From positions 1-64,000 of the IMG/VR virus record IMGVR_UViG_3300020169_000014: DNA of 64,000 nucleotides; one strand, written 5' to 3'. The notes under the pieces were generated by a model. The model did no database searches and was not told the origin of the DNA. It was given only the letters and a program-made list of their open reading frames with translations. A program made the translations under genes and the position numbers. Below, piece after piece: positions 20,671 to 41,088 of this stretch (position 1 is the stretch's first letter; every line of letters begins with the position of its first letter). The stretch is from an uncultured virus (IMG/VR IMGVR_UViG_3300020169_000014). Lineage: Duplodnaviria; Heunggongvirae; Uroviricota; Caudoviricetes.

Positions 20671-23600
20671 TTAGTTAAGTAGCGTTCCCGCAGAGTTATA
20701 TACGTTGATTCGATAATGCGAACCTTGTTGACCATCAAGAACATCAGCATCCAGACCTGAACCCGATCCATCTACAGTCTTGACCGCAGTCAACAGTTCA
20801 TTTGCAGTAGAGTATGTTTCATCTACCGAGAACTGACCAGTCGCAGAGTCATATGCGATATCACCAGTAACACTGAATTGATCACGAATGTTTTGTGTCG
20901 TGACCTTGTTATAGGTAATTGTACCAGTTCCAGAGTTATAACTTAAAGAACCGAATCCAGTACCATTATTATTGATACCGATTGCACCACGTGCAAGAGT
21001 ATCAGTATACTGTGTAATGGTAGTTGAAATCGCCCCATCGGTGATTGAGATACCAGTACTTGCGGATATTGCAGAACGGATGTTTGCATCTGTTACCTTC
21101 GCAAAACTAAACTCTCCATTTGAATATGAGAGTGTACCATATCCGGTACCACTATTTGCAGCAGAGAACAATGCAAGAGTTGACGCAGAGTCTACGCCAG
21201 GATTTGCTAAACTAAACTGTCCGGTCGCACTATCATATCCAAGACCCGAATTATCTACACTGAATAAGTTACGGATAGTAGACGTATGGTTGGATAGACT
21301 CGATACAGTACCAGTTACGTCACCTGTTAGGTTTGCGGTGATTGCAGTTGCAGTAAAGTTACCCGAACCATCACGTTCAACAATTGTACTTGCGGTATTC
21401 GCAGAAGTCGCAGTAGTTGCAGAATTCTGTACCTTACCCGCAGTTGAGATTGTTCCGAGTTTAGTATCTGCAATCGCAGCATTTGTATTGATGTCAGCAT
21501 TGACAATAGTATTCGCAGTAATCCCAGTCGTAATAGTAATGTTACTAGTACCATCAAACGAAGTTGCGGTACCAGTCACATCACCAGAAATACCAATAGT
21601 TCTTGAAGTGAGAAGACTATTTGCGGTAGACGCATTACCCGTTACTGCACCAGTAACATTACCATATAATCTGTTGACTTGCAAGTCTGCGAGTTCAAAA
21701 GATGGGTCTGAAGTATTGATGTTTCCACCAACTTCTGGATCGTATTTGTTGAAGAACTTCCAACGACTATCTGTGGTATCACGGAAGACACCCGCATGGG
21801 TATATGGCGCATCAATCGTATTGTAGTTACCGACAATACCAAAATCTTGATTGATTGGTTGTGCGTCACCTTTCCAGTAGTTGTTTAAAGTGTGACCAGT
21901 AGGAGACGAGAAAGTTACCTTGACATTATATCTTAATGGTACAAGAGTATTATCTACACCCAAGTTCCAAGAGGTAGGGCCTGTACCACCGTCCGAATCA
22001 AACGATAACGGAGTAAACTCGCCAATACCTTCCGCAGAGTCGAAACCCCATTGGATAGTATCACCTGCACTATCGGTTCCGGTTATCTTGACAAAATACG
22101 TTCTGTCAGAATCACCTTCATAATATTCTTTGAAAGTCGCATCATTAAGTCCAGATATACCCGCACCGAATACTGTTTCGATGGTATCACCTGCACCAAC
22201 ATAGATGAACTGATCACCAACGTTTAGAGACTGTACAGTAGTTGTTGTTTCAGAACCAAGGATGTTCAGATTACCTGCGATAGTGACATCACCATCTACA
22301 CGTTGGTTACCTTGAACACGAATGTTCTCTGCAATCTCTGGAGCAAGACGGATCTGAATACAACCACCGACATTACCACCAGTTGCGGAATCCGAAACAA
22401 GTACCGTACCAACTTGATATGGCCAGTTAGGATAATCAGGAGAAAATGCTACCATTTCACCCGCACTATCAGGAGAAACGTGAAGGGTATCACCCACATT
22501 AAAGGATGCAGTATTCAACCCACCGTATAGACCACGTACTGTTACATAACCATATGCACCATTAGCGATAGTACTTGATGCAAGTCCAGATGTTGTGTAT
22601 GTTGTACTGAAGTTATCTGCCTTTGCAAGTGAGATTGTCGGGAAGTCATTTGCAGCACCAGTTACATATACAACTTTACCCTTGGGAATAGATGATCCCG
22701 AGTTGTTGAAAACTCGCATGATTTCATCTTGACCAACTTTGACATTGATTGATGAGTTCGAGTATACAAGTGCATCAGGGCCTTGCATATAAAACAAGTT
22801 ACCTTCACGGAAAGCAGGAAGGTTATTGGGAACATCGATATCCGAGTAGGATGATATGTCTACGTTAAGTAGTTTGAAGTCACCAGAATCCGCAGTGATT
22901 TTACCATCAACAATCATACGGTCTTCAACACGGATATATTCTGCGTGTTCTTTCTCAATGTTTACAAGTAGTGAACCCGAAGTAGAATCTACTGAGATTA
23001 CACGACCTACGTGTGTAGGATAACCTTGGTCGATTGATACTTCAGTTGTAGACCACTTACCCGCACTATCAGCAGAAAGGTATGCAAATGCACCTTCGAT
23101 CATATTCGAAGTGTTCAAACCATTTACTAAACCGAACTGAGTCACATAACCGTGGTTCCCGTTCGGGATATCCATAGTTGCAATACCAGTAACATTTGCT
23201 GTAGAAGAAGCATCTGCCTTTGCAAGAGATATTTGGGGGTGGATACCGTGTGCAGTACCGGATACGTATACTGCATCACCATTGTTAATCTGTCCACCGG
23301 TCAAGTTATGAACATATATTAAATGTTCTTGACCGAGGTTGATTGTTACATCTTGAACCAATTCATTGGTTGTTGGTATAAACGATATACCTTTCTGTGG
23401 GTTTGAATCATAGTAGAGTAAACCCGCAAGACTATTAGGTGCAGTTTCTTGTTTAGTTAAGTGTAGACATCCAATCTCTGCGGAGTCAACAGTTACCTTA
23501 CCGAATACAATATCATCGGTAGTTCCGACAGACTGTGCAATCGCAATAGACCCGTCAGTGATTGTGACACCAGTTCCACCAGAGAAATGTGCACGAGTCT

Positions 23601-27180: not shown

Positions 27181-27555
27181 TTACCTTGTTACCGAAGGTG
27201 AGACTTTGATCTTACCCTCTAAAATTCGTTCAATGAGAATATTACCGTCACTATCATTGACCGCTAATTCAACGTCATAGACGTAACGTGTTCTGGTATT
27301 GAGGGTGTCAGTTTGAGTATTTGTGAGGGATAAAACTGCAATACCATCTGTTGCGGGTTCGCTAACGATAGTGGTGAAATCTAGGATCTCATCACTGTCA
27401 ACAGAAGTGTAACTACGTTTCATTTTTGCGTTAACGGTATGTCCAGTCAAGTTTTTCTTGGAACCGTCAGTTTCCTGAAGGTGCAACTCGATTGCAACGT
27501 CTGCGCCTTGATCAATTGTAAAGTCTTCGTAATCTGCCATTCCAGTTCCCATCAA
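27181..27555 (-). CDS. Ig-like adaptor / fibre-attachment protein (BppU-N-like)
   Basis: IDQGAD, NLTGHT, LSLTNTQT, RYVYDVEL, RILEGKIKVSPSVT; start probably at MADY. Confidence 0.65.
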   Translation of the reverse strand: MMGTGMADYEDFTIDQGADVAIELHLQETDGSKKNLTGHTVNAKMKRSYTSVDSDEILDFTTIVSEPATDGIAVLSLTNTQTDTLNTRTRYVYDVELAVNDSDGNILIERILEGKIKVSPSVTR

Positions 27556-27577
27556 ACCAAAGTTGTGTCTATGGTTT

Positions 27578-27585
27578 TATTTATA
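27578..27585 (-). promoter_or_regulatory. T4-type late promoter
   Basis: TATAAATA on the minus strand, intergenic. Confidence 0.75.
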
Positions 27586-27612
27586 TGTTTTGGAAACTGG
27601 AAAACGAGATAT

Positions 27613-28308
27613 TTATTCGTCTGAACTAATTTCTTCGAGTAAATCTTCGCGAAGTTCAGCGGATAGTTGGGAAGTATCGAAAGTGAAAGATACTGTACAT
27701 CTCCAACAGTCAGTCTTCGCGGCATGATAGAACAATCTTTCGGGTTCACCGTAATGACCAAAGTATGCTGCCTTGCACTGCCACCCTGGCTTATCTTCCA
27801 TCACCACAACTTCTTTTGATATAGGATCTACATATTCGAATTGACCTTCTCCAGTTTCCGACCACGTGAAGATCAAATTATACGCTGCTGCATTTGCATT
27901 ATTGTGCCAAGAGATAAAACCACCGGGCGGATACCATGCGGTTAGTGCATTATTTTTCACACCCAACCAATTCATAAGTCCTTGATTCATGTGCGCGAGT
28001 TCTGCGGTTCTATCTTTTCTTACCGAGGGATGAACCCCGTTATTGAAAAATTCATGTCCCTTGCGACCAACACTCATTTCATAACCATACATCTGATCGG
28101 GAAATCCTTCGTGTCGGGTTCCTTGATCTAATATTTCTTCCAGATGACCTTTACCCGCCCAGAAATGTCTATTCCGTGATTCGTGAGAACAACTCTTATG
28201 AAATGTTTCCTCGAAGTCAGGGATATCTCTGGTCAAGAAATCTCGATAGGCATTTAATTTCACCAATAAGTCTTGGTTCATCACCGGAATGTCTTGCATA
28301 TAACTCAT
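27613..28308 (-). CDS. 2OG-Fe(II) oxygenase-like protein, paralog of 6504-7127
   Basis: YPPGGFISWHNN ... YHAA ... RCTVSF; shares YNLIFTWSETG and GWxCKAxYFG with the paralog. Confidence 0.6.
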   Translation of the reverse strand: MSYMQDIPVMNQDLLVKLNAYRDFLTRDIPDFEETFHKSCSHESRNRHFWAGKGHLEEILDQGTRHEGFPDQMYGYEMSVGRKGHEFFNNGVHPSVRKDRTAELAHMNQGLMNWLGVKNNALTAWYPPGGFISWHNNANAAAYNLIFTWSETGEGQFEYVDPISKEVVVMEDKPGWQCKAAYFGHYGEPERLFYHAAKTDCWRCTVSFTFDTSQLSAELREDLLEEISSDE

Positions 28309-29054
28309 ATAATATATCCGTCCTTATCTAATCCACAGGAATAATGTCTGACAATAACTTCACCTTCTGGTCTAGTCCTTGCCCAGTTGAATGCGTTATA
28401 ATAGTTCCAACGCAAATCATCTTCCAAGATACCATACTTCAGGTCTTTGTATTTAGGTTCTTTCTCGGTCAACCACCAAAGACTGAACTGATCCCATGAC
28501 CGAAGACTTTCTATATATCCTTCAGGCCACCAGTCACGATCCATTTGTCTGCGTGTGAGATCCCACCAATCATCCATGAACTCACGTACAATAGGTTTGG
28601 TCATATCGTAAAGTGCAACACCACCACATAGAGTGAACTTGGATGGGCCATCGGGAGTATCAAAACTTCTTTCGGCATAGACATATTCACGATCATCGGT
28701 CAATTCAGAGAATAAGATGTCTTCGTCACGTCTTTCCAATTCATCAAAACAAATGCGGATATCTTCGTGTTCCACTTCCATATCAACATCGAGGTACATG
28801 GTTAGGTCATATGGAGAACGAGCCATACCATCTAGTTTTGCACGGTAGTGGGATGAACACCATTCAACATTATCAAATAAATCTCGGTGTATTTCTTCGA
28901 ACATCCACTCTTCGCAGAATAGTGTAATCTTCGCATCTTCGTAATAATCCAGAATAGATTCTGCTAGATTGATCGCATACCGATAGAAGTTAATCTTATT
29001 CGATGCAACCAACACATAACCTTTAGACTTCTCAGACATCTTCCTCAACTCCAA
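28305..29054 (-). CDS. GT-A fold glycosyltransferase-like protein
   Basis: GYVLVA...AINLAESI, RAKLDGMARSPYDLTMYLDVD (DxD), GGVALY, WDQFSLW, WN, IVRHY; likely start ATG at 29039. Confidence 0.75.
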   Translation of the reverse strand: MELRKMSEKSKGYVLVASNKINFYRYAINLAESILDYYEDAKITLFCEEWMFEEIHRDLFDNVEWCSSHYRAKLDGMARSPYDLTMYLDVDMEVEHEDIRICFDELERRDEDILFSELTDDREYVYAERSFDTPDGPSKFTLCGGVALYDMTKPIVREFMDDWWDLTRRQMDRDWWPEGYIESLRSWDQFSLWWLTEKEPKYKDLKYGILEDDLRWNYYNAFNWARTRPEGEVIVRHYSCGLDKDGYII

Positions 29055-29487
29055 GTTCTTCTTTTAAAAGCAACATAGCAAAAAGATTCGCTTCTACCTT
29101 GGACTTTGCTCGTCTAAGTTTAGACTTGAGTTTTCTGTTCTTAGAGTTTTTAATTTCTTCGGTTTCGAAGATTTCTAATTTATAGTTAAAGAGTTCTTCT
29201 AACTTACGTGCACGTGCGTGTTCCACATCACGTTGTTTATCTTCTTCTTTTTCGGCAGCTTTACGAATCTTACGGTCTTCGGTATTTCTATCTACAGACT
29301 CTTCACCTAAAGCATCAATGACTTCATTGAACAATTCATTTTCACTACCATCCTTATTCTTGCGACTCAACATCATTACTTGTCGGGTCTCGCGATCCAG
29401 ATCATCTTTCATTTCTAGGATACAGTTGAGTTTTTCTTTCTCCTCTGTTTCCCAGAACGCATTATCCATCCATCTTTTATAACTCAT
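29032..29487 (-). CDS. Charged helical hypothetical protein (possible fibre chaperone)
   Basis: Good RBS (GGAGAA); E/K/R-rich; directly follows the giant repeat gene and overlaps the glycosyltransferase start. Confidence 0.7.
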   Translation of the reverse strand: MSYKRWMDNAFWETEEKEKLNCILEMKDDLDRETRQVMMLSRKNKDGSENELFNEVIDALGEESVDRNTEDRKIRKAAEKEEDKQRDVEHARARKLEELFNYKLEIFETEEIKNSKNRKLKSKLRRAKSKVEANLFAMLLLKEELGVEEDV

Positions 29488-29536: not shown

Positions 29537-32500
29537 TTAAGCAACCCTTACGTACAAGGTATATGTCTCAATCACTCCTGTTCCGGAATCAACAGTTGTT
29601 CCGGTATAATTACCAGTAAAGTTTCTGGCATAATTTCCTGCGAATGTTCTACTATAGTTACCCGCAAAACCTCTACTATAATTACCAGTAAAGTCACCTA
29701 AGTATGACGAGGTTCTAGTTCTAGTAGAATCTATGGTATATGCTGAATTTCGACTTCTACTAAAAGTGGATACTCTAGTTCGTGCAGAGGTTCTGACCGA
29801 AGTTCTTGAGTAGTCCCCAACAAAAGTTCTACTATAGTTACCAGTAAAGTCTCCGACATAATTAGAAGATCGGGTTCTTGCATATTCACCAACAAAGGTT
29901 CTATTGTAGTTACCCACAAAGTTACCCGCAAAGTCTGAAGTAGAATCCCGAGTATATTCTCCTACAAAGTTTCTGTTGTAGTTACCAACAAAATCTCCTA
30001 CGAAAGTCCGGCCATAATTACCACCAAATATTCTTGAGAAGTTACCAGTGTATTCTCCTACAAAATCAGTCGCACGAGTTCTTGCATATTCTCCCACAAA
30101 GTTTCTGTTGTAGTTGCCGACATAGTTACCCGCAAAACCTCTTGCATAGTTACCAACAAATCCTCTATTGTAGTTACCGACAAAATTACCCGCGAATGTA
30201 CTGATACTATTTCTTGTGTATTCCCCAACAAAAGTTCTATTGAAATTGCCGGTATAATTACCCCCAAATCCACGATTGTAATTACCTGCGAATGCACGAG
30301 CATAGTCACCAATAAAGTTTCCAATAGAGTCGGTTACCCGAGTCCTAGAATAGTTACCTGCGAATGCACGAGCATAGTTACCTTCAAATGCACGAGTCGA
30401 AGTGCGGAGAGATATACGGGTATAGTTACCAACGAATCCTCTATTATAGTTACCGACAAAATTACCTGCGAATGTACTGATACTATTTCTGGTATAGTTT
30501 CCGGTAAAGGTTCTACCATAGTCACCAACAAAGTTTCCAATAGAGTCGGTTATACGAGTTCTTGCGTAGGCAGATACACGATTACGAATATAAGACGATG
30601 CACGAGTACGTATATATGTGGATATTCTACTACGGGTCGATATACGAGTATATTCACCAGTATAGTTGCCGGTGTAGTTGCCTGCAAATCCACGAGTATA
30701 ATCACCAGTGAAATTACCTGCGAACGTGCGAGTATAGTTCGATGACAATGTGAGCATATCAGTGATACTAGGACTTGCTGCGTTTGTAGTATCATCTACA
30801 CGAGGTTCCCAGAACTGTTGATTGGTCGCGGTATCTGTTGAGTAATACAAGTATGTTCTGTGGTATGCAGTAGTGTTACCACTCCAGACAAAATCATTCT
30901 GAGCGGATACAACTTTCTCACCCGCCATATTATAGATACCAGAGTCAGCATGAGCCGCACCGGTACCAGAACCTTCGGGGAAAACGTGACCGACTACCAA
31001 AAACCATTCGTTTTGAGATTCGGTACCATACCACCAACCTCTCGCTTGGAAGTACGGATTACTGTTAGATGCACCATTACTTCTGTTCAATACTGTTCCG
31101 CCAACACCAAGATAGAATGAACCATTACCAATAACTTTACGTCTTACCCATGTAGAGAATCTGTATAGTTTGGTTTTATCAACTGAGAAAGCTGAAGTAT
31201 TCCAACCACCATCTGCATTAGATGTCGCATCTTGATTTGACACATCCCAAACGATATCAGTACCCTTCGGAGAAGTGTCGGAAATACGTGAGTTACCGTC
31301 CCCGTTCTGATTATAGTTAGTTGCAGAACCAGTACCAACTGTCCAAGCAGGAAAGTTCTGCCACAACAAGTTAGATTGATCTGAGTAACGTGTACCAGTT
31401 GTACCTACGAACTGAACGATACTATCACGAGTTGATGTACGAGTATACGTAGAACTTCTGTTTTGAATACGAGTTCTTGTGTAATTACTAGGTCTACTGC
31501 GTGTAGATATTCTAATGTATGCGGATGATCTACTACGTGCCGATATACGAGTATATGTGGAGAGACGGCCGCGGGTCGATGGGTTTATTGAAGTGCGAAT
31601 ATATGAAGAATTTCTACTACGGGTCGATATTCTAGTATACGCAGAGATGCGAGTTCGCGAATAGTCACCTATAAAGTTTCGCGAATAGTTTCCTATGTAG
31701 TCTCCGGTATAATATCCAATGCGAGTGTAGTCGCCTATGTAGTCACCTGCATAAGATCCAATGCGAGTATAGTCACCCGTAAAGTCACCTGCGTAATATC
31801 CAATGCGAGTAAAGTATAATGGAGTTATTCTATTACGAATAGATATGCGAGTATAGTCTCCGGTATAGTACAATGTGCGAGTATAGTTACCGATGTAATA
31901 TAGAGTTCGAGTATAGTCGCCTGTATAATACAATGTACGAGTATAGTTACCGGTGTAATATAGAGTTCGAGTATAGTCGCCCGTAAAGTTACCTATATAA
32001 TATCCGGTTCGGATATAGGTATCGATTCGATTCGAAGTACGGGTACTTGTTCTAATGTACGTACCGGTTCCAATTCTAGTACGTATAGATGTTCTGATAT
32101 AATATCCGGTCGCAGTTCTGGTTCTCGAAGAATATCTCAGGTAATTCGCAACCCCCAAATAATCACCGGTATAATACACTGTCTGTTTAACTATTCGAGT
32201 ATAGTCACCTACATAGTTAACTATTCTATTATAGTTACCTACAAAATTACCAACATAATACAATGTACGAGTGTAGTTACCTGTGAAATTACCAATGTAA
32301 TACAATGTACGAGTGTAGTTACCTGTGAAATCACCTGCATAATATGATGTACGTTGGTAGTATAATGTAGCAATTCTGTCTCTTATTGATATACGTTGGT
32401 AGTTACCAGTCGCAATTCTGGTACGAATATATGTTCCGGTGGCAGTTCTGGTACGAATATATGTTCCGGTGGCAGTTCTGGTTCTGATATAGTCACCAGT

Positions 32501-34897
32501 TGCAATTCTTATACGAGTATAATTTCCGGTATAGTTACCAGTATAGGTCGAATCACGAGTATATGTTAAAATTCGACTACTAGTTCGAAGACTCGTTCGG
32601 ATATAGTTGAGTGTGCGAACTGAAGTTCGAAGACTCGTTCGGATATAGTTGAGTGTGCGAACTGAAATACGTGTGCTGTTTCTGGTATATGCAGAAGGAC
32701 GAGTACGGCCATATTCTCCTACGAACCCTCTATTATAATTGCCAGTATAATTGCCAGCAAACGCACGAGTATAATTTCCGGTATAGTTACCAATGTAGTT
32801 TCCGGCAAATGTTCTTTGGTAGTTACCAGTATAGTCGCCAGCAAACGCACGGTTATAATTTCCGGTATAGTTACCAGCAAATGATCTACCATAGTCGCCG
32901 ACATAATTACCGACAAATGTTCTTGCGTAATTACCACCAAAGTTACCGACATATCCTTGGAATCTGTCGCGAGTATATGTTACCAATGAATTCCGTGAAG
33001 AAATACGAGTGTAGTTGGAACCTCTTGTTCTTGCACTAATACGTGTTGATATACGAGAATAGTTGCCGGTATAGTCACCCGCAAACCCACGTGAATAGTT
33101 ACCTATAAATGTTCTATTATAATTACCAACAAATGTTCTATTATAGTTACCAACATAGTCACCGGTAAAAGTTACAAGTCTATCCCGAACATAATTGGAA
33201 ACTCGGCCACGAGTGTAGTTACCAATAAAGTCACCGGTAAAGTCTGTTACTCGATCACGTGTATATGCGGATATTCTCGTGCGTGTATAATTGCCTGTAT
33301 AATTACCTGCATAATTAGAAACACGAATTCTTGCGTATGCAGAGATACGAGTACGGCCGTAGTTACCAACATAGTTACCGGTAAAAGTCGTTAGTTGATC
33401 TCTGGTGTATGTGGAGCTTCTAGTTCGGGTATATGCGGAGATACGAGTACGGGTACTTATTCTAGAGTATGATGATACTCTGTTACGTGCATAGTTGCCA
33501 ACAAAGTCGCCAATAAAGGATGTTACTCGATCACGAATATATGCACTGGTACGTGTTCGCGAATATGTTGATATGCGATTACGTGAGTATGTTCCTGCGT
33601 ATGCGGATACTCTAGTACGGGAATAATCCCCAACAAAATTACCAATATAGTTTCCCGAAAACACGGTTGTGTATGTAGATGTTCTGTTACGAGTATATGT
33701 ACTCAACCTGTTGCGAATACTATTTCTACTGTATGCAGATACTCTTGTTCTAGAATAATTGCCTACAAAGTTACCTGTGAAAGTATTGATACTATCTCTG
33801 GTATATGCAGAAGATCTATTGCGAACATACTCGCCCACAAAGATTCTAGAGAAAGTATCAGTACTGTTTCTAGTGAAAGTTGAAGCACGGTTTCTTGTGT
33901 ACTCACCTACGTAATTACCGACATACTCACCCACATAATCTCTGATATATTGTCCCGAAAAGTTTCGAGTGTAGTTGCCAATATAATTTCCACCAAAATC
34001 TCGGGTGAACGTATTTGTGCTATTACGAGTGTATAGTGAAGTTCTTGTTCTTGCGTATGCGGATGAACGATCACGAGTATAAGAAGATGCACGAGTACGA
34101 ACATATGCAAGTTCTGAAGTTGTTCTTTTAGTATTGGTCGCAGTACCTTTTGCGGCCCAAGTTCCTGCACTTACCGGAGTTCCCTGAGTCGCAGATCTTA
34201 ATTGGTAAGAACCAATATTACCCACCTTTCCCCTAAGAGTTTTACAGTGTTGTCCATAAGTGTAAGTAATCTGGTTAACAGATTGTTCTTGTAATCCACC
34301 AAAACTGGCGGCAGAACCTGACCCAATCATACCAATCGGAGACGTGGCTGTCGGTGCAGTCATTGCATCACGTTGGTAGATATTGTATACTGTAGAAGTT
34401 CCGTTACCTAATGTATCTGTGTATACAGCGGGGATAAATGTACCATAGTCCGCACTAGGTGCAGAAGAACCGAGGTAAAAGGTGCCTGGATAATCAGATA
34501 TTGCAATACGTGCATTCAGACGAGTACATAAGGTATCCATATCTACATCAGTAAATTCATGAATACCTACATCACCCGAAGTGTTCCAACCAACCGGTCT
34601 GTTATAAAAACTACCAGTATAGTTCGCATCATTAGATAGTTGTCTTAGATTAGTCGTAGTTGTGCCGGAAGTGATAGATGATGCGGGATGGGTACCATCA
34701 GGTTCATTGTAGAAAGTATCAACGAAAGAACCAATGATAGTACCACTAGAGAGATGCAAGTCTCCCGCAGAAGAACCCGAAGAATTCTTTAGTTGAATAC
34801 CTGCAAGATAGGCGAGATAGTTCTCTTCCGTAGGAGTCATCTCCTTCAGATCACCATTCGTACCTTCTAACTTTAGTGGGATATCAGATGCGGCCAC
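29537..34897 (-). CDS. Giant self-complementary tetrapeptide-repeat protein A (1786 aa), predicted beta-hairpin fibre with an inserted globular domain
   Basis: 264-aa N-domain paralogous to 34946-38032; units YxRx, RxSx, SxRx, (F/Y)xGx; non-repetitive 221-aa insert; ends ETYTLYVRVA. Confidence 0.85.
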   Translation of the reverse strand: MAASDIPLKLEGTNGDLKEMTPTEENYLAYLAGIQLKNSSGSSAGDLHLSSGTIIGSFVDTFYNEPDGTHPASSITSGTTTTNLRQLSNDANYTGSFYNRPVGWNTSGDVGIHEFTDVDMDTLCTRLNARIAISDYPGTFYLGSSAPSADYGTFIPAVYTDTLGNGTSTVYNIYQRDAMTAPTATSPIGMIGSGSAASFGGLQEQSVNQITYTYGQHCKTLRGKVGNIGSYQLRSATQGTPVSAGTWAAKGTATNTKRTTSELAYVRTRASSYTRDRSSAYARTRTSLYTRNSTNTFTRDFGGNYIGNYTRNFSGQYIRDYVGEYVGNYVGEYTRNRASTFTRNSTDTFSRIFVGEYVRNRSSAYTRDSINTFTGNFVGNYSRTRVSAYSRNSIRNRLSTYTRNRTSTYTTVFSGNYIGNFVGDYSRTRVSAYAGTYSRNRISTYSRTRTSAYIRDRVTSFIGDFVGNYARNRVSSYSRISTRTRISAYTRTRSSTYTRDQLTTFTGNYVGNYGRTRISAYARIRVSNYAGNYTGNYTRTRISAYTRDRVTDFTGDFIGNYTRGRVSNYVRDRLVTFTGDYVGNYNRTFVGNYNRTFIGNYSRGFAGDYTGNYSRISTRISARTRGSNYTRISSRNSLVTYTRDRFQGYVGNFGGNYARTFVGNYVGDYGRSFAGNYTGNYNRAFAGDYTGNYQRTFAGNYIGNYTGNYTRAFAGNYTGNYNRGFVGEYGRTRPSAYTRNSTRISVRTLNYIRTSLRTSVRTLNYIRTSLRTSSRILTYTRDSTYTGNYTGNYTRIRIATGDYIRTRTATGTYIRTRTATGTYIRTRIATGNYQRISIRDRIATLYYQRTSYYAGDFTGNYTRTLYYIGNFTGNYTRTLYYVGNFVGNYNRIVNYVGDYTRIVKQTVYYTGDYLGVANYLRYSSRTRTATGYYIRTSIRTRIGTGTYIRTSTRTSNRIDTYIRTGYYIGNFTGDYTRTLYYTGNYTRTLYYTGDYTRTLYYIGNYTRTLYYTGDYTRISIRNRITPLYFTRIGYYAGDFTGDYTRIGSYAGDYIGDYTRIGYYTGDYIGNYSRNFIGDYSRTRISAYTRISTRSRNSSYIRTSINPSTRGRLSTYTRISARSRSSAYIRISTRSRPSNYTRTRIQNRSSTYTRTSTRDSIVQFVGTTGTRYSDQSNLLWQNFPAWTVGTGSATNYNQNGDGNSRISDTSPKGTDIVWDVSNQDATSNADGGWNTSAFSVDKTKLYRFSTWVRRKVIGNGSFYLGVGGTVLNRSNGASNSNPYFQARGWWYGTESQNEWFLVVGHVFPEGSGTGAAHADSGIYNMAGEKVVSAQNDFVWSGNTTAYHRTYLYYSTDTATNQQFWEPRVDDTTNAASPSITDMLTLSSNYTRTFAGNFTGDYTRGFAGNYTGNYTGEYTRISTRSRISTYIRTRASSYIRNRVSAYARTRITDSIGNFVGDYGRTFTGNYTRNSISTFAGNFVGNYNRGFVGNYTRISLRTSTRAFEGNYARAFAGNYSRTRVTDSIGNFIGDYARAFAGNYNRGFGGNYTGNFNRTFVGEYTRNSISTFAGNFVGNYNRGFVGNYARGFAGNYVGNYNRNFVGEYARTRATDFVGEYTGNFSRIFGGNYGRTFVGDFVGNYNRNFVGEYTRDSTSDFAGNFVGNYNRTFVGEYARTRSSNYVGDFTGNYSRTFVGDYSRTSVRTSARTRVSTFSRSRNSAYTIDSTRTRTSSYLGDFTGNYSRGFAGNYSRTFAGNYARNFTGNYTGTTVDSGTGVIETYTLYVRVA

Positions 34898-34945: not shown

Positions 34946-37900
34946 TTATGCGGTTCTTACATACAGAGTATATGTTTCAACTGAGAATGTAGTATCCCTA
35001 ATAGTCTGACCCACGTAGTCTCCTACAAAGTCTCTGGAATAATTACCGGCAAAGTTTCTACTATAATTACCGGTATAGTTGCCGCCAAAATCTCTAGTAC
35101 TTGTTCGAGTAGACTCTCTAGTATATGAAGATCCTCTAGTTCTGGTGTATGTAGACCCACGATTTCTTATAAAGTTTGTATTACTTACACGGGTATAGTT
35201 GGAGTTTCTATTTCTGGTAAACTCACCAGTATAATCACCGACATAATCCGCAGCATAAACTCCAACGTATGTAGATGCTCTTAAAGTTATGTATGACGAA
35301 ACCCGAGATCTACTGAAAGAATCGAACCTTGTTCTGGCTGATATTCGTGTGAAATCTCCGGTATAGTTGCCGCCAAAATCTCTTGTGTAATTACCTGCAA
35401 AGTTTCTTGAGTAAGACGATACCCGAGTTCTGATATATGTCGAATAACGATCATTTAAACTAACTCTGGTAAATAGACCTGCATAATTACCGGTATAGTT
35501 ACCGGCAAAGTCTCTCGTATATTCACCGGTATAGTTACCAGTATAGAGTGAAACCCTAGTCCGTATATAATTACTGTTTCTTTCTCGGGTAAAGTCTCTT
35601 GCATACTGTCCCGAGAAAGTAGAAGACCTAGTCAGTATATAATTACTGTTTCTTTCTCGGGTAAAGTCTCTTGAATATTGTCCCGAGAAAGTAGAAGATC
35701 TAGATCTTATGTAACTAGAATCTCTATTTCTGGTAAAGTCCCTCGCATATTCTCCCGCAAAAGTAGAAGATCTAACTCTTATGTAATTCGAATTTCTAGT
35801 TCTTTCATAGTTTCTTGAGTATTCGCCAACAAACAATCTATTATAACTTGATACTCTGGCTCTTTCGAAGTTTCTTGAGTATTCCCCAGCAAACTCTCTA
35901 GAATAAGTAGATACCCGAGTCCTAGTAAATTCGCGAGTGAATCCCTGCAAATATGAACTGACTCTTGTGAAATCACCAATGTATGAAGGAACCGTCCTAG
36001 TAGCTATAAAGTCACCGGTATACGTAGCGGGGCCAGCAAAGTAAAGACCACCACCCGATTTGTCGTATCTGACAGAATTCACAAATCCCGCAAAAGTAGA
36101 TGTACTGTTACGAGTATATTCTCCTCCCGGCAATCCCAAATAACCAGCACCCACAAAGTCTCTTGTGTAATCACCAGTATAGTATAAAGTACCTTTTAGG
36201 TATTCTGCACGAGCTCGTGTATAATTACTTACTCTAACACCACCATATGTGGATGTCGAAGTGCGTGTAAAGTTTAATGTTCGAGTGAAGTTGCCAATAT
36301 ATGTTGAGAAACGAGTTCTGCTGAAGTTTCTATTATATGTAGAAATTCTATCTCTTGTATAGTCACGTGCATATTCACCAACAAAGGCTCTATTATATGC
36401 TGAACTTCTATCTCTAGTGAAGTCACGTGCATAGTTACCAATATATGTGGCAGTATAATTGCCAGTGTAAGTTGATGACCTAATTCTAGTGAAGTCACGT
36501 GAATATTGTCCAGAGAAAAATCTGGAGTAATTGCCAGTGTAAGTTGATGACCTAATTCTAGTGAAGTTACGTGCATATTGTCCAGAGAAAAGTCTGGTAT
36601 AATCGCCAGTGTAATTAGAATTTCTAATTCTAGTGTAGTCACGTGCATATTGTCCAGAGAAAAATCTGGTGTAATCGCCAGTGTAATTAGAATTTCTACT
36701 TACTATTCTTGTTCTGGTATAGGTAGATGTTCTAGCACGTGTCGAGATTCGTGTATATTCACCTACATAGTTACCAGCATAGTTGCCAAGAAACATTCTA
36801 GTATAGTTGCCGGTAAAGTCTCTGGAATAATTAGATGTACGAGTTCTACCATAAGCCGATTCCCGAGTCCGTGTGAAGTCTCTGGTATAATTGCCTGTAA
36901 ATTCACCGGCATATGAACTGATACGTGTCGCTATGAAATCTCTAAAAAAGGTACGTGAAAAGTTGCGACTGAAGTTACCTGTGTAATTTCCAATATAGTT
37001 GCCTGTAAAGTCTCTAGAATAGTCTCCGACAAAAGTTCTACCATAGTCGCCAGTAAAATCACCGGTATAATTGCCCGTAAATTCTCTGGTATAGTTTCCT
37101 ATAAATTCTCTGGTGTAATTGCCTGTGAATTCACCGGCATATGAAGTTGTCCCTGTGCGAGTGTAATCATCAGCGTAAGCCGAAGGTCTAGTTCTCGTGT
37201 ATAAAGATGCTCGTGTGCGAGTATAGTTCTGTTCACTGACAACACGAATGGTGTTTGCAGCACTACCTACATTCTTCCAAGTACCACCGACAGGTATACC
37301 CTGCGAAGAAGTTCTAAGTTCATATGATCCGACCGCACCATCAATTGCACGTCTGGTTTTCGCACGTTGACCAATAGTCACTTGAACTTGACGATCTGTT
37401 AATGCTTGTAATCCTTCATAAGTACCAGAGGCGCCACTACTTCTCTTCAGTCCCGCGAGAGTGACCGAAGTTGGAGCAGTCATTGCAGTTCTACGCCATA
37501 TACTATAGTCATTTACAGTATATGGGTTCCCCGAAGAGTCAGCACGTTGATCATGCAAAACACTAGGGACTAGAATGTCATAGTCTGCACTAGGTCTGGT
37601 CGAAGACAACTTGAGAGAGCCTGGATAGTCAGATAGTGCGATACGACCATTGATATCATCGATGAAAGTGTTCAGATCATTATCCGACATTTCATATACA
37701 TTACTTTCATAATGTCCGACTGGTTTTCTCCAATCACTATCATTCTCTAGTGCGGTACCATTGATCTGATATAAATTTGTTGTGGTGGTAATAACCGATT
37801 GGGCATTATATGGATGAGTTCCAACGGGTTCTGGATAATAGGTATCCGTCAGAGATCCAAGAGACCTATTTCCACTTGCACTGAGCGTAAGAAGCCCTAC

Positions 37901-38032
37901 ATCGCTACTGTCCGCAATTGCGTTCTGTAGTCCTGCGAGGTAGGCAACATAATTTTTCTCGGTTGCATTTATCTGTTGGAGATTACCATTAATGTCTTTT
38001 AATTTTAACGGTAATGTCTTATTATCTGACAT
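34946..38032 (-). CDS. Giant self-complementary tetrapeptide-repeat protein B (1028 aa)
   Basis: N-domain LPLKL...G.L.....E.NY.AYLAG...GTHP...SDYPG shared with protein A; same repeat alphabet; ends ETYTLYVRTA. Confidence 0.85.
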   Translation of the reverse strand: MSDNKTLPLKLKDINGNLQQINATEKNYVAYLAGLQNAIADSSDVGLLTLSASGNRSLGSLTDTYYPEPVGTHPYNAQSVITTTTNLYQINGTALENDSDWRKPVGHYESNVYEMSDNDLNTFIDDINGRIALSDYPGSLKLSSTRPSADYDILVPSVLHDQRADSSGNPYTVNDYSIWRRTAMTAPTSVTLAGLKRSSGASGTYEGLQALTDRQVQVTIGQRAKTRRAIDGAVGSYELRTSSQGIPVGGTWKNVGSAANTIRVVSEQNYTRTRASLYTRTRPSAYADDYTRTGTTSYAGEFTGNYTREFIGNYTREFTGNYTGDFTGDYGRTFVGDYSRDFTGNYIGNYTGNFSRNFSRTFFRDFIATRISSYAGEFTGNYTRDFTRTRESAYGRTRTSNYSRDFTGNYTRMFLGNYAGNYVGEYTRISTRARTSTYTRTRIVSRNSNYTGDYTRFFSGQYARDYTRIRNSNYTGDYTRLFSGQYARNFTRIRSSTYTGNYSRFFSGQYSRDFTRIRSSTYTGNYTATYIGNYARDFTRDRSSAYNRAFVGEYARDYTRDRISTYNRNFSRTRFSTYIGNFTRTLNFTRTSTSTYGGVRVSNYTRARAEYLKGTLYYTGDYTRDFVGAGYLGLPGGEYTRNSTSTFAGFVNSVRYDKSGGGLYFAGPATYTGDFIATRTVPSYIGDFTRVSSYLQGFTREFTRTRVSTYSREFAGEYSRNFERARVSSYNRLFVGEYSRNYERTRNSNYIRVRSSTFAGEYARDFTRNRDSSYIRSRSSTFSGQYSRDFTRERNSNYILTRSSTFSGQYARDFTRERNSNYIRTRVSLYTGNYTGEYTRDFAGNYTGNYAGLFTRVSLNDRYSTYIRTRVSSYSRNFAGNYTRDFGGNYTGDFTRISARTRFDSFSRSRVSSYITLRASTYVGVYAADYVGDYTGEFTRNRNSNYTRVSNTNFIRNRGSTYTRTRGSSYTRESTRTSTRDFGGNYTGNYSRNFAGNYSRDFVGDYVGQTIRDTTFSVETYTLYVRTA

Positions 38033-38046
38033 TCTCTTTCCTACTA

Positions 38047-41000
38047 TTAGTTTAGAAGAGTACCGTTTTCGTCATAGATTAAGACAGTTCTAGATGCCAG
38101 TTCATTTAACGCTTTAACAATACTATCATTATTTATACCTTCAAAGAAGTTGCCTGGCGCAGAACTGTCAAGTGTATTCAACTGACCAACTCGATTACTC
38201 AAGTTTAGAATGTCTGTGTCATTACTTGTGACTCTACCCTTTACGACTTCAATTTCACCAACCGCACTATCCAGTTGGGTGTGGATCTCATTGATAGCCG
38301 GAACAATAAACTTACTTGTTGTATCCAGTGTGGAGATACCTGTTCCTGACATGTTCGCAGTTGTACCACCGGACTGTATAATGTCCAGATGCGCACGGGT
38401 TATAAGTTTCTCGGACTCTATCTCGGTAACTGCACTATCTAGTTGCAAATGAAGTTCATTGATACCACCCGCAACATCTTGTGCGGTAGTGTCTAGATCT
38501 TCGTCAGTGTGGAATGCACGACCATGTATCTCTACCTTAGTTGCATCCATTTCGATTGCAAGACCAGTACCAGAATAAATGTCCAGATGATTGCCAGAGT
38601 TTCGGAATTCACCAAACTGAACGGTTGCATCTTTAAGGAATACATTACCACCGTCTGCATCAAGTGTAATATCACCGGAGACATCATACGTCAGATTTCC
38701 TACAACATCAACTTCTTGGTTTGTACCAAGGTTATAGGTGAACTTAGTTACACCGCCATCCTTGAAGAAGATGTCCGCGCCATTCGCGTCAAGTGTAATA
38801 TCACCTTCTGCATCAAGAAGAATATTTGTTCCTGCATTGATGGTTGCAGTTGTTCCTGCGGTAGTAGATGTAGATCCACCGGCAGTCTGTACAATACTAC
38901 CTGTAGTAGTCAGACCATACGAGTCCGCACTATCATTTAATGCACCGATGATAGCATTTACTAATGTGCCACCAACAGTAGTAGTTTTGTTTACAGTAAT
39001 ATTCTCTTTTACCGAACCACCAATAGTTAGACTATAACCATTTGTAGTAGTCAAAGATGCAGAATCACTTACCGATATATTATAATCTCCGGTAACAGTG
39101 ATGTTGTTTGTTGCACCTAATTGATGACGGATGCGTGTGGATGCACCGTCTTTGAAGTAAATGTCGTTTCCATCTGCGTCAAGTGTAATATCACCAGAAG
39201 CATCGATCAAGTAATTACCATCTGCTGTATGGGTTTGTCCCAATGATGTTGTGGTCAATGTACCCAAAGTAGTATGAGACATTGCACCACTAGAAGTAAC
39301 TGAGTAAGTACCACCAGCACTATCAGATTGGTTACCTGATACAGTTTGTGTAAGATTACCGTTAACATCTAAAGTGTTTGACGCACCCATTCCATATGAG
39401 AAACGAGAAGTACCTGCATCTTTGAAGTCGATGTCTCCACCGTCTGCATCCAGTACTATATCACCTGCCACATCGACAGTTAAGTTGCCGGTGGGTACGT
39501 CAATCTCTTGATTCGCACCCATAACGAAGTCGAATCTGATCGCCCCATTATCTTTAAGTGTAACATTACCGCCATTTGCATCAAGGTTAATATCACCCTC
39601 AACATCTGCGGTTAGGTTACCACCAGCGGTAAGACCCATGTTTGATTCAGTAACAAGATTGAACGCACCACCCGCAGTATTCGTCATCGGGCCACGAGTG
39701 TCGATATTAATACCGTTAGTCGAAGAGATGTCACGAGTACCAGAAGCACTGTCAGAGTGATCTCCTGCCACTGTAAGGGTGTTGTTACCCGAAGTAGTAG
39801 TAGTGAGTGTACCTGTAACATCTAAAGTATTTGCTGAACCCAGTCCGTAAGCAAAACGAGTCGTTCCAGCTTGTTTGAGGTCAATGTCACCACCACCGGC
39901 ATCCAATACAATATCATTGACAACATCAAAGATCAACGAACCGACAACATCAATCTCTTGATTCGTACCGAAATTATATGTTACCTTATTGGCACCACCA
40001 TCTGTTAGATATAGTTGTCCACCATCAGCATCGAGAGTAATATCTCCAGATGCATCAACAGTGAAGTTTCCCGCCACATTATGGGTTTGTCCCAATGATG
40101 TTGTGGTGAGAGTACCAAGAGTGGTATGAGACATCGCACCAGTTGAGGTGATGTCACGAGTACCATTTGCACTGTCTGAGAAGTTGCCTGAGACGGTTTG
40201 AGTTAGATTACCTGTAATGTCTAAGGTATTAGATGCACCAAGTCCGTATTCAAATCTAGATACTCCACCGTCTTTTAGGTCGATGTTTGCGCCATCTGCG
40301 TCTAATATAATATTACCAGACACATCAAGAGTATAATTGCCAGTTACGGCTTCGGTGTTAGTGGTACCCATCGTATATGCAATACGAGTAACACCACCAT
40401 CTTTGTATGTAATGTTTGCCCCATCTGCATCGAAGATTATATCACCCGAGATGTCAAATGTCAAGTTTCCGGTACGAGAAACTGTACCGTCAGTAGCAAA
40501 GTCGTACTCTGTGACACCAGCATCTTTGAATGTGACATTACCACCATCAGCATCAAGGATAATATCTCCGGACGCATCGACAGTGTATGTGGTCGTTTCT
40601 ATTCTAGTTGCACCGGTAGAGGTAAGAGTTGTATCACCAGATACATCGATATCTAAGTTAGAAGAAATATCAAGATCAAGGATACCAGTCACACCAACTG
40701 TGTTAGTGGTACCTAATGTGAATGCAATACGACTGACCGAATCATCAAGGAAGTTGATGTTAGATCCACCGGCATCTAAATTAATATCACCTACCGCATC
40801 AACGTTGAAGTTTGCACCGACATTGAATTGTACATCAGTACCACTTGCTTGATTAGTACTGATTAGTAAACGAGTTTGAGTTTCCCCTTGGAGGGCATTT
40901 CCCGTAGGATAAATGATTTCACCGGAAGATGCGTCAAACACTCTTTCGATTTCGTTGATGGCCATGACCACATCACTATCACCGTGAGTGAGAAGATCCA

Positions 41001-41088
41001 CCGGATCGCCAACATTATAAGAGACAGTGTTGAGGTTGTCTCGCATTATCTTGAACGAGTCACTTAGTTTCGTAAATGGTCTTGACAT
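38047..41088 (-). CDS. Repetitive beta-rich fibre protein (1013 aa)
   Basis: 11 copies of DIxLDAxGxxIxxKD by manual count; four (A/G)(I/L)NE helical motifs; ends IYDENGTLLN. Confidence 0.75.
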   Translation of the reverse strand: MSRPFTKLSDSFKIMRDNLNTVSYNVGDPVDLLTHGDSDVVMAINEIERVFDASSGEIIYPTGNALQGETQTRLLISTNQASGTDVQFNVGANFNVDAVGDINLDAGGSNINFLDDSVSRIAFTLGTTNTVGVTGILDLDISSNLDIDVSGDTTLTSTGATRIETTTYTVDASGDIILDADGGNVTFKDAGVTEYDFATDGTVSRTGNLTFDISGDIIFDADGANITYKDGGVTRIAYTMGTTNTEAVTGNYTLDVSGNIILDADGANIDLKDGGVSRFEYGLGASNTLDITGNLTQTVSGNFSDSANGTRDITSTGAMSHTTLGTLTTTSLGQTHNVAGNFTVDASGDITLDADGGQLYLTDGGANKVTYNFGTNQEIDVVGSLIFDVVNDIVLDAGGGDIDLKQAGTTRFAYGLGSANTLDVTGTLTTTTSGNNTLTVAGDHSDSASGTRDISSTNGINIDTRGPMTNTAGGAFNLVTESNMGLTAGGNLTADVEGDINLDANGGNVTLKDNGAIRFDFVMGANQEIDVPTGNLTVDVAGDIVLDADGGDIDFKDAGTSRFSYGMGASNTLDVNGNLTQTVSGNQSDSAGGTYSVTSSGAMSHTTLGTLTTTSLGQTHTADGNYLIDASGDITLDADGNDIYFKDGASTRIRHQLGATNNITVTGDYNISVSDSASLTTTNGYSLTIGGSVKENITVNKTTTVGGTLVNAIIGALNDSADSYGLTTTGSIVQTAGGSTSTTAGTTATINAGTNILLDAEGDITLDANGADIFFKDGGVTKFTYNLGTNQEVDVVGNLTYDVSGDITLDADGGNVFLKDATVQFGEFRNSGNHLDIYSGTGLAIEMDATKVEIHGRAFHTDEDLDTTAQDVAGGINELHLQLDSAVTEIESEKLITRAHLDIIQSGGTTANMSGTGISTLDTTSKFIVPAINEIHTQLDSAVGEIEVVKGRVTSNDTDILNLSNRVGQLNTLDSSAPGNFFEGINNDSIVKALNELASRTVLIYDENGTLLN

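What the first reader, a model, noticed from the sequence alone, without database searches (positions are those of the whole stretch)
30737..31399. 221-aa globular domain inserted as a one-sided bulge in the hairpin
Seen: a non-repetitive Trp-rich block (NLLWQNF...DGGWN...YRFSTWVR...NPYF...WFLVVGHVF...RTYLYY...FWEPRVD) interrupts only the returning arm. Pairing resumes exactly across it: YTRD/YTRT on one side, RFQG/FVGT on the other, with no residues skipped on the opposite arm. This independently supports the hairpin register. Inference: a carbohydrate-binding-like jelly-roll hung about 60% of the way along the fibre as an exchangeable receptor-binding module; paralog B lacks it.
Basis: partly seen in the sequence, partly recalled or inferred. 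Interest (0 to 1): 0.75.

Follow-up and report, generated by a model that had tools for sequence, protein, structure and literature searches.

The report
Swappable sugar-binder on fold-back fibre
A sugar-binding-type domain is looped out of the returning strand of a giant fold-back tail fibre of a marine phage and is swapped between phages, which suggests that these fibres serve as racks for exchangeable adhesion modules.

Summary
Confirmed. Residues 1167-1387 of a 1786-aa fibre of a T4-like marine phage form a one-sided bulge. With pair scores learnt on insert-less relatives, the mirror register jumps from sum 2031 to 1810, exactly 221, with nothing skipped on the outgoing arm.

The domain folds as a CBM4-like jelly-roll (pLDDT 93.5; Z 11.7) but has no Pfam hit. 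It is a widespread insertable module (1543 clusters) and also sits inside a LamG loop, so its ends close.

It is exchanged: the core is 98-100% identical in a fibre otherwise 52-76% identical, and a near-identical phage has a 63% allele. A relative in a carrier clade lacks it.

All 20 bulges of 100+ residues lie in the returning arm, though they stem from few independent events. Two relatives carry five and six, with LamG-, PA14- and CBM-like cargo at such sites. The '60%' position is not conserved (43-79%).

Best reading: a side-mounted, swappable glycan adhesin. Binding, the 3D hairpin and the oligomer are not shown. The scan noted this bulge before on another genome (e1-5826092).

The parts
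29537..34897 (-). Host gene A, 1786 aa (GTG start), fold-back fibre of a T4-like phage
   Evidence: neighbours gp6, gp8, gp9-like, sheath, portal, capsid
34106..34897 (-). N-terminal base domain (aa 1-264), shared with paralog B (44%) and the whole family; no Pfam, PHROG or NCBIfam hit
32966..34105 (-). Outgoing arm, proximal part (aa 265-644), pairs with aa 1766-1387 (sum 2031)
32195..32965 (-). Outgoing arm, distal part (aa 645-901), pairs with aa 1165-909 (sum 1810)
32174..32194 (-). Tight turn (aa 902-908); no tip domain in this protein
   Evidence: tip 7 residues
31400..32173 (-). Returning arm, distal part (aa 909-1166)
30737..31399 (-). The bulge: 221-aa CBM4-like jelly-roll domain (aa 1167-1387)
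30870..31299 (-). Exchanged core of the domain (about domain residues 34-177), between the conserved NGDGNSRI and HRxYLYY motifs
29597..30736 (-). Returning arm, proximal part (aa 1388-1767)
29537..29596 (-). Conserved C-terminal strand (ETYTLYVRVA type), brought back to the base domain by the fold-back (inference)
34946..38032 (-). Paralog B, 1028 aa, single register, no copy of the domain, large tip
27181..29487 (-). Four genes (151, 249, 231 aa and an LtfC-like 124 aa) that follow the last family gene in 56 of 66 loci; candidates for fibre assembly or modification

Best explanation
The domain is an exchangeable, side-mounted glycan adhesin. SHOWN BY SEQUENCE: the fibre's two arms are mirror-complementary. 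The domain replaces no paired residues, because its ends come together, so it can be added, removed, stacked with a second module or nested without changing the outgoing arm. Its core is traded between lineages by crossovers in the conserved motifs near its two ends, which swaps variable loops while keeping the fibre junctions. PREDICTED: a CBM4/16/22-like beta-sandwich. INFERRED: the arms zip into a long antiparallel shaft (638 pairs, roughly 200 nm at the usual beta rise). The domain hangs about 130 nm from the base and binds a surface or matrix polysaccharide weakly and reversibly. Several fibres per virion give avidity, tethering the phage before the dedicated receptor-binding proteins act, as accessory CBMs do on lactococcal phages.
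For: Register and nulls. 16 of 16 carriers among 91 representatives are returning-arm bulges with outgoing skip 0. Empty-site relative L117 is 98-99% identical in the base to three carriers. Fold: pLDDT 93.5; CBM4-2 4bj0 Z 11.7, rmsd 2.9, 149 aligned; Foldseek ranks 1-5 are CBM4-2; Atlas cluster with 56% CBM_4_9 at 0.93. Other cargo at bulge sites is glycan-binder-like: LamG E 1e-15 (L199), PA14 E 8e-4 and CBM_4_9 E 9e-4, both under cut-off. The family occurs in surface proteins: pilin-like, T9SS-sorted, collagen tail fibre, LamG. Exchange. Invariant Tyr/Trp/Arg/Asp/Asn residues across 82 sequences.
Against: No Pfam, PHROG, NCBIfam or PDB sequence match for the domain. Structural identity to CBMs is 8-13%, TM-score by query is 0.50, and the top Z scores are tied with non-CBM jelly-rolls (a cyclase Z 11.0, a phage baseplate protein 10.6, MAM 10.4), so the fold does not fix the ligand. 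Pairing is weak for ~10 residues beside the junction. Most of the other bulge cargo has no family: 4 of 4 in L183 without a meaningful hit, 3 of 5 in L199 with none and one with only a faint fn3 hit. No host, virion proteomics or EM is available.
Confidence: 0.58

Rival explanations
1. The domain is the primary host-range determinant of this fibre, moved from tip to side: protein A has a bare 7-residue turn and the allele classes are host types.
For: A's tip has no domain. Many carriers have short tips (6-39 aa in 9 of 16) while most insert-less long members have tips of 60-250 aa (lineage-confounded). Core alleles recur across base clades like receptor-binding alleles. In L194 the same domain lies in the tip region.
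Against: Relatives with neither insert nor tip domain exist (L117 tip 23, L139 tip 2, L102 tip 3). The genome has further fibre genes. The invariant residues are shared with copies in unrelated bacterial proteins, which points to a common ligand.
Confidence: 0.2
2. The domain is structural: a protein-binding knob that docks, cross-links or stows the long fibre on the virion, or marks a hinge.
For: Distance from the base is 378-388 pairs in 8 of 15 carriers while the distal length varies. Jelly-rolls of equal Z include protein binders and baseplate parts. Pairing loosens next to the junction.
Against: The distance is 338-613 pairs overall. Loss is tolerated (L117). The core is swapped between lineages that are 57% identical in the base, which a fixed virion partner would not favour. 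Five and six bulges with different cargo occur.
Confidence: 0.12
3. The arms pair between chains (antiparallel dimer or polymer) rather than within one chain; the domain is then a lateral knob on an intermolecular ribbon.
For: A complementary code does not tell cis from trans; no confident model of the stem exists.
Against: The register converges on a 7-residue turn in A and on turns of 2-9 residues in several relatives. The conserved C-terminal strand would return to its own base domain.
Confidence: 0.07
4. The insert is a tolerated passenger with no selected function on the fibre.
For: It is dispensable (L117) and the domain is highly mobile (1543 clusters).
Against: It is kept in frame with invariant residues intact in all carriers aligned, several alleles circulate, and further modules are stacked at the same site.
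Confidence: 0.03

Closest known systems
CBM4 / CBM16 / CBM22 carbohydrate-binding modules (galactose-binding-domain-like jelly-roll; CBM4-2 PDB 4bj0, 2y64)
   Same: Beta-sandwich topology over model residues 9-204 (Z 11.7, rmsd 2.9, 149 aligned); best Foldseek matches.
   Different: About 50 residues longer with terminal helices; 8-13% identity; no PF02018 hit; ligand untested. It is an unnamed family of its own.
Accessory CBMs inserted in virion proteins of lactococcal and streptococcal siphophages (evolved Dit, TpeX, neck-passage CBMs; PMC6669499, PMC7291167, passages read)
   Same: CBM inserted in a loop of a structural protein, optional, multivalent, acting beside the main receptor-binding protein; the J-1 evolved-Dit CBM2 (5ly8) is a structural match, Z 10.2.
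   Different: The host here is a very long fold-back fibre of a myovirus, the insert is a one-arm bulge, and up to six different modules hang along one chain.
T4 gp37 needle (six-stranded antiparallel needle of a trimer; PMC9659904 and PMC7291167, one passage each)
   Same: Chain runs out and returns antiparallel.
   Different: About 640 pairs here, against a T4 receptor-binding region of 215 residues in all. No histidine in the repeat arms, whereas the needle's His-x-His iron sites are recalled, not read. No side domains are described in the passages read.
Knob-and-shaft fibres of R-pyocins and tailocins (PMC12208367, passages read)
   Same: Putative binding knobs along a shaft, gained and lost singly, diversified by recombination.
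   Different: There the chain runs one way and knobs are in series; here the module is looped out of one arm of a fold-back stem, leaving the other arm unchanged.

Membership tests
CBM4 / Pfam CBM_4_9 (PF02018) | Sequence match to the family profile | tested here: not met
   No Pfam family at E <= 0.05; no PDB sequence match for the domain alone or in profile (all 39 profile hits start at position 254 or later, the neighbouring LamG)
CBM4 / Pfam CBM_4_9 (PF02018) | Beta-sandwich jelly-roll fold | tested here: met
CBM4 / Pfam CBM_4_9 (PF02018) | Aromatic-lined binding cleft on the concave sheet | tested here: inconclusive
   D63, Y96, N114, Y116, R181, Y183 are 96-100% conserved in 82 sequences. 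Their place on the concave face is inferred from strand alternation and recalled CBM4 topology, not measured on the model.
CBM4 / Pfam CBM_4_9 (PF02018) | Binds a polysaccharide | not testable with these tools
   needs an array or cell-binding assay
CBM4 / Pfam CBM_4_9 (PF02018) | Structural calcium site (recalled) | not tested
   no ligand-bearing model made
LamG / ConA-like lectin (PF13385) | Profile match of the domain itself | tested here: not met
   LamG hits in homologous proteins lie outside the domain, which interrupts the LamG
Evolved Dit / accessory virion CBM | Host protein is Dit, MTP or neck-passage protein of a siphophage | tested here: not met
   host has no such match and lies in a T4-like module
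Evolved Dit / accessory virion CBM | CBM-fold domain inserted within a virion structural protein, optional among relatives | tested here: met
   virion location of A is inferred from gene context only
T4 gp37-type needle | Antiparallel out-and-back chain | tested here: met
   sequence register only
T4 gp37-type needle | His-x-His metal sites in the core (recalled) | tested here: not met
   no His in the repeat arms of A
T4 gp37-type needle | Trimer forming a six-stranded barrel | tested here: inconclusive
   no usable model of the stem (see Tried and rejected)

The most novel reading that the evidence does not exclude
These fold-back fibres are a general display scaffold with a stem-bulge grammar like RNA's. 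Any domain with closed ends can be hung at any height, up to six different ones per chain, but only from the returning arm. The two arms would then be structurally or kinetically unequal, for example with outgoing strands forming a continuous inner core or template that the returning strand zips onto from the tip. Marine T4-like phages use the rack to carry a recombining set of glycan binders along a fibre of 200-330 nm.
Probability: 0.4. Interest if true: 0.82.

Novelty: new variant of a known kind. Interest (0 to 1): 0.62.

Why it matters
It is a natural insertion experiment supporting the fold-back model of a fibre family that AlphaFold2 did not model here: inserts of 127-413 residues are absorbed on one arm with no change on the other. 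It defines an unnamed, widespread CBM-like family (1543 clusters) used by phages, pilin-like proteins and T9SS cargo, and shows where its core is swapped. The domain is small and confidently folded, and natural alleles exist, so what marine T4-like phages grab first on cells or particles becomes directly testable. The returning-arm-only rule gives a testable handle on how such a fibre assembles.

Tried and rejected
Mutual-information scan of registers: dominated by the 2/4-residue periodicity and not discriminating.

AlphaFold2 of a stem-plus-insert region (L108, 631 aa, 13 sequences): stem pLDDT about 25, insert mostly 70-90, so uninformative on the hairpin. Its fold search returned only the jelly-roll matches.

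Complex prediction of 3 x (returning arm + insert) with 3 x outgoing-arm fragment: no verdict, score 0.00, no evidence either way.

Pfam, PHROGs, NCBIfam and PDB sequence searches of the insert and base domain: blank.

The four other bulges of phage C48C1 have no Pfam family and no relatives among the ORFs then held. One matches two L199 bulges at 47% and 37%. No language-model look-alike was obtained for them, so their folds stay open.

No paper names phage C48C1 or its accession, so I do not call it an isolate. Searches for a described fold-back fibre with inserted domains gave nothing relevant.

Rejected: 'fixed at 60% of the length' (43-79%). Assembly chimera as the source of the L131 mosaic is unlikely but not excluded: an unbroken contig of run X1 repeats it with 0 differences, though X1 may be the source sample.

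Uninterrupted LamG controls were absent from my loci and were fetched instead.

Partial ORFs (L187, L189, L192, L195, L198, L206) were not counted in the tally. Neither were L199 and L194, which came later.

Full report
CONTEXT. The window is the structural region of a T4-like myophage: baseplate gp6, gp8 and gp9-like genes, sheath, terminase, portal and major head protein. The finding lies in ORF A (29537-34897, minus, 1786 aa), next to paralog B (34946-38032, 1028 aa). Both have a shared ~264-aa base domain (44% identical), long Y/F-x-G/R-x and R-x-S-x tetrad repeats, and a conserved C-terminal strand. The stretch 30737-31399 is residues 1167-1387 of A.

CHECKING THE REGISTER. A seed rule read off A's outermost tetrads gave recurring sums i+j in A (2031 outside, 1810 or 1808 inside) and in two insert-less relatives. 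I then trained a 20x20 pair matrix on those two relatives only (L009, L011); the commonest pairs are R-Y, G-R and F-S. On A, sum 2031 ranks first of 769 for residues 265-640 and sum 1810 first of 739 for 655-850. A gapped self-alignment with equal penalties on both arms gives 386 + 252 pairs and a single gap, 0 residues on the outgoing arm and 221 on the returning arm. Shuffling in-phase tetrads of the returning arm never reached the observed score (0 of 2000; z 10.2 and 7.6). Against over-reading: the ten pairs just distal to the junction score poorly, short windows there do not pin the register (rank 6-36), and the boundary is uncertain by at least one residue. B has one register and no copy of the domain.

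RELATIVES. From 183 loci, 186 full-length ORFs carried the base domain (108 unique, 105 with the intact C-terminal motif, 91 representatives). Sixteen of 91 carry the domain, and in all 16 it lies in a returning-arm gap with no outgoing residue skipped. The gap length follows the insert (221, 222, 227, 229, 230, 230, 230, 230, 233, 233, 381, 395, 413). In L131, L136 and L183 the program split the gap with a few spurious pairs. P0001, a shorter fibre, shows 246 with a separate 10-residue gap elsewhere. Among the 48 representatives scoring 300 or more, 29 have one unbroken register, and gaps of 100+ residues number 20 on the returning arm and 0 on the outgoing arm; the count is 20-21 versus 0 under three penalty settings. 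Outgoing gaps of 20-73 residues do occur, mostly paired near tips or in weakly scoring B-type proteins. The 20 are not independent: most share one ancestral site, so perhaps three or four events underlie them, and the polarity is suggestive, not proven. L117 is 98-99% identical in the base to carriers L027, L037 and L111, lacks the domain, has mirrored 92-residue deletions in the two arms relative to L027, and keeps one register of 661 pairs. The position is 338-613 pairs from the base, 43-79% of the length.

MULTI-BULGE FIBRES. The GenBank genome of phage C48C1 (OQ984149.1, Kyanoviridae, host not given) encodes a 3347-aa member with five domain-sized returning-arm bulges (127, 174, 158, 153 and about 270 plus a short duplication). 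L199 (3901 aa) has six (149, 169, 251, 150, 129, 248). Cargo differs between them at several sites; one L199 bulge is a LamG domain (E 1e-15). At A's own site, L124 adds a CBM_4_9-like domain (E 9e-4), L040 a PA14/GLEYA-like domain (E 8e-4, 6e-5; all below cut-off), and L126 nests about 175 residues inside the domain. In L194, a fibre with a different acidic repeat, the domain sits in the tip region instead.

THE DOMAIN. There is no sequence family, but 1543 clusters at 50% identity match it. Of the best 150, only 2 are fibres of this type. Of 47 scanned, companions include LamG, pilin N-methyl signals, T9SS sorting domains, RHS/DUF6443, collagen plus S74 chaperone, and phage tail protein L. 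AlphaFold2 with 82 sequences gives a 14-strand sandwich, pLDDT 93.5, pTM 0.91. The best solved matches are CBM4-2 (Foldseek TM 0.50/0.63-0.65; Z 11.7, rmsd 2.9, 149 aligned, 13% identity). CBM61 (11.5), CBM16 (10.9) and non-CBM jelly-rolls lie within about one Z unit. Viral structural relatives include tail and tip-attachment proteins at TM 0.77-0.85, and Vibrio phage records annotate relatives as virion structural proteins. I could not measure the termini on the model. Natural evidence stands in: in LamG proteins the Asp-to-Trp spacer of the first loop is 14 residues in 21 of 24 uninterrupted relatives, and 222-238 in ten carriers picked from the 17 of 156 domain copies with both flanking motifs. 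The LamG profile splits around the domain at about position 29. A domain that fits a short loop has adjacent ends.

EXCHANGE. A and L003 are 100% identical in the base but 63% in the domain; A and L131 are 57% and 90%; L027 and L037 are 98% and 63%. Against L003, divergence is confined mainly to codons ~681-1400 within a region 95-98% identical. Against L131, A is 98-100% identical in three 40-codon bins of the domain core (89% in the next) and 52-76% in all others, while L136 versus L131 shows the reverse. The switch points lie in the conserved NGDGNSRI and HRxYLYY motifs. AU tests on the core reject A+L003 (p 3e-8) and L131+L136 (p 1e-62), and weakly L027+L111+L037 (p 0.04) (11 rows, with L120, P0001, L126, L040, L135 and L183 left out). 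A contig of run X1 spans the L131 mosaic with no differences, and runs X2 and X4 of other studies join the same flanks to a different core. Overall identity of base and domain still correlates (Spearman 0.46), so descent and exchange both act. The most variable blocks among fibre alleles are residues 101-130 and 161-180.

MECHANISM. Shown: mirror complementarity, one-arm insertion, optional presence, stacking of modules, core exchange. Predicted: CBM-type fold. Inferred: an antiparallel shaft of roughly 200 nm (638 pairs at about 3.3 A, general knowledge), the knob about 130 nm from the base, glycan binding through invariant Tyr/Arg/Asn/Asp residues with allele-specific flanking loops, and avidity from several fibres. 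I put 0.58 on accessory glycan adhesin, 0.2 on primary receptor binder, 0.12 on structural knob, 0.07 on intermolecular pairing and 0.03 on passenger. The oligomeric state is open.

COMPARISON AND NOVELTY. It works like the accessory CBMs inserted into Dit, tail and neck proteins of lactococcal phages (PMC6669499 and PMC7291167, passages read) and like the gainable knobs of tailocin fibres (PMC12208367, passages). It is not a member of CBM_4_9 or LamG by profile, and the host is not a gp37 needle (PMC9659904, one passage; no His in the arms). Supplements of these papers were not opened. I found no description of a fold-back fibre with looped-out domains (other rows seen as search listings only; the library lacks most subscription journals). 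Earlier notes of this scan describe the hairpin on other genomes and this same bulge as a swappable adhesin (e1-5826092). I saw those after reaching my reading and tested the claims here. The short listings of those notes do not mention the multi-bulge members, the returning-arm polarity, the empty-site relative, the LamG-loop insertion or the mapped crossover motifs.

VERDICT. Observation confirmed, interpretation supported with function untested. New variant of a known kind (exchangeable accessory CBM) on an undescribed scaffold. Interest 0.62.

Noticed in passing
window 27181-29487 (-): Four genes follow the last fibre gene in 56 of 66 loci: 151 aa, 249 aa (a DxD-like motif suggests a glycosyltransferase; by eye, no database hit), 231 aa (HxN...H pattern suggests a cupin or oxygenase; by eye) and an LtfC-like assembly protein. 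A has 56 N-x-S/T motifs. The fibre may be chaperoned or modified.
   Followed up: partly
L199 632-12334 (+); L183 16012-26055 (+): 3901-aa and 3347-aa family members with six and five returning-arm bulges. L199 also has a ~450-aa FG-GAP propeller inserted in its base domain.
   Followed up: partly
L194 1778-12337 (+): A related fibre of 3520+ aa with an acidic 12-residue repeat (ETYTGNYTGAPA type) that also self-pairs, a 636-aa tip region holding the same domain, and a 239-aa Gly-rich returning-arm bulge.
   Followed up: partly
L183 around 22250-22390: The C48C1 gene repeats about 69 codons covering the end of the domain and the following stem; a tandem duplication or an assembly artefact.
   Followed up: no
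L027 versus L117: Mirrored 92 + 92 residue indels in the two arms, about 1150 codons apart; how both arise together is unexplained.
   Followed up: partly
P0006, P0013, P0027, P0142: The same domain occurs in pilin-like proteins with an N-methylation signal or a similar leader, 51-63% identical to the phage copy where listed, suggesting traffic between phage fibres and bacterial pili.
   Followed up: no
window 38047-41088 (-): 1013-aa gene upstream of B with gp5 C-terminal-like beta-helix repeats (PHROG 430, PF22178 weak); possibly a long spike or carrier for the fibres.
   Followed up: no
paralog B, window vs L001/L003/L004/L103: B varies in length (1026-1073 aa) among near-identical phages, and B-type proteins have large unpaired tips (up to ~470 aa).
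   Followed up: no
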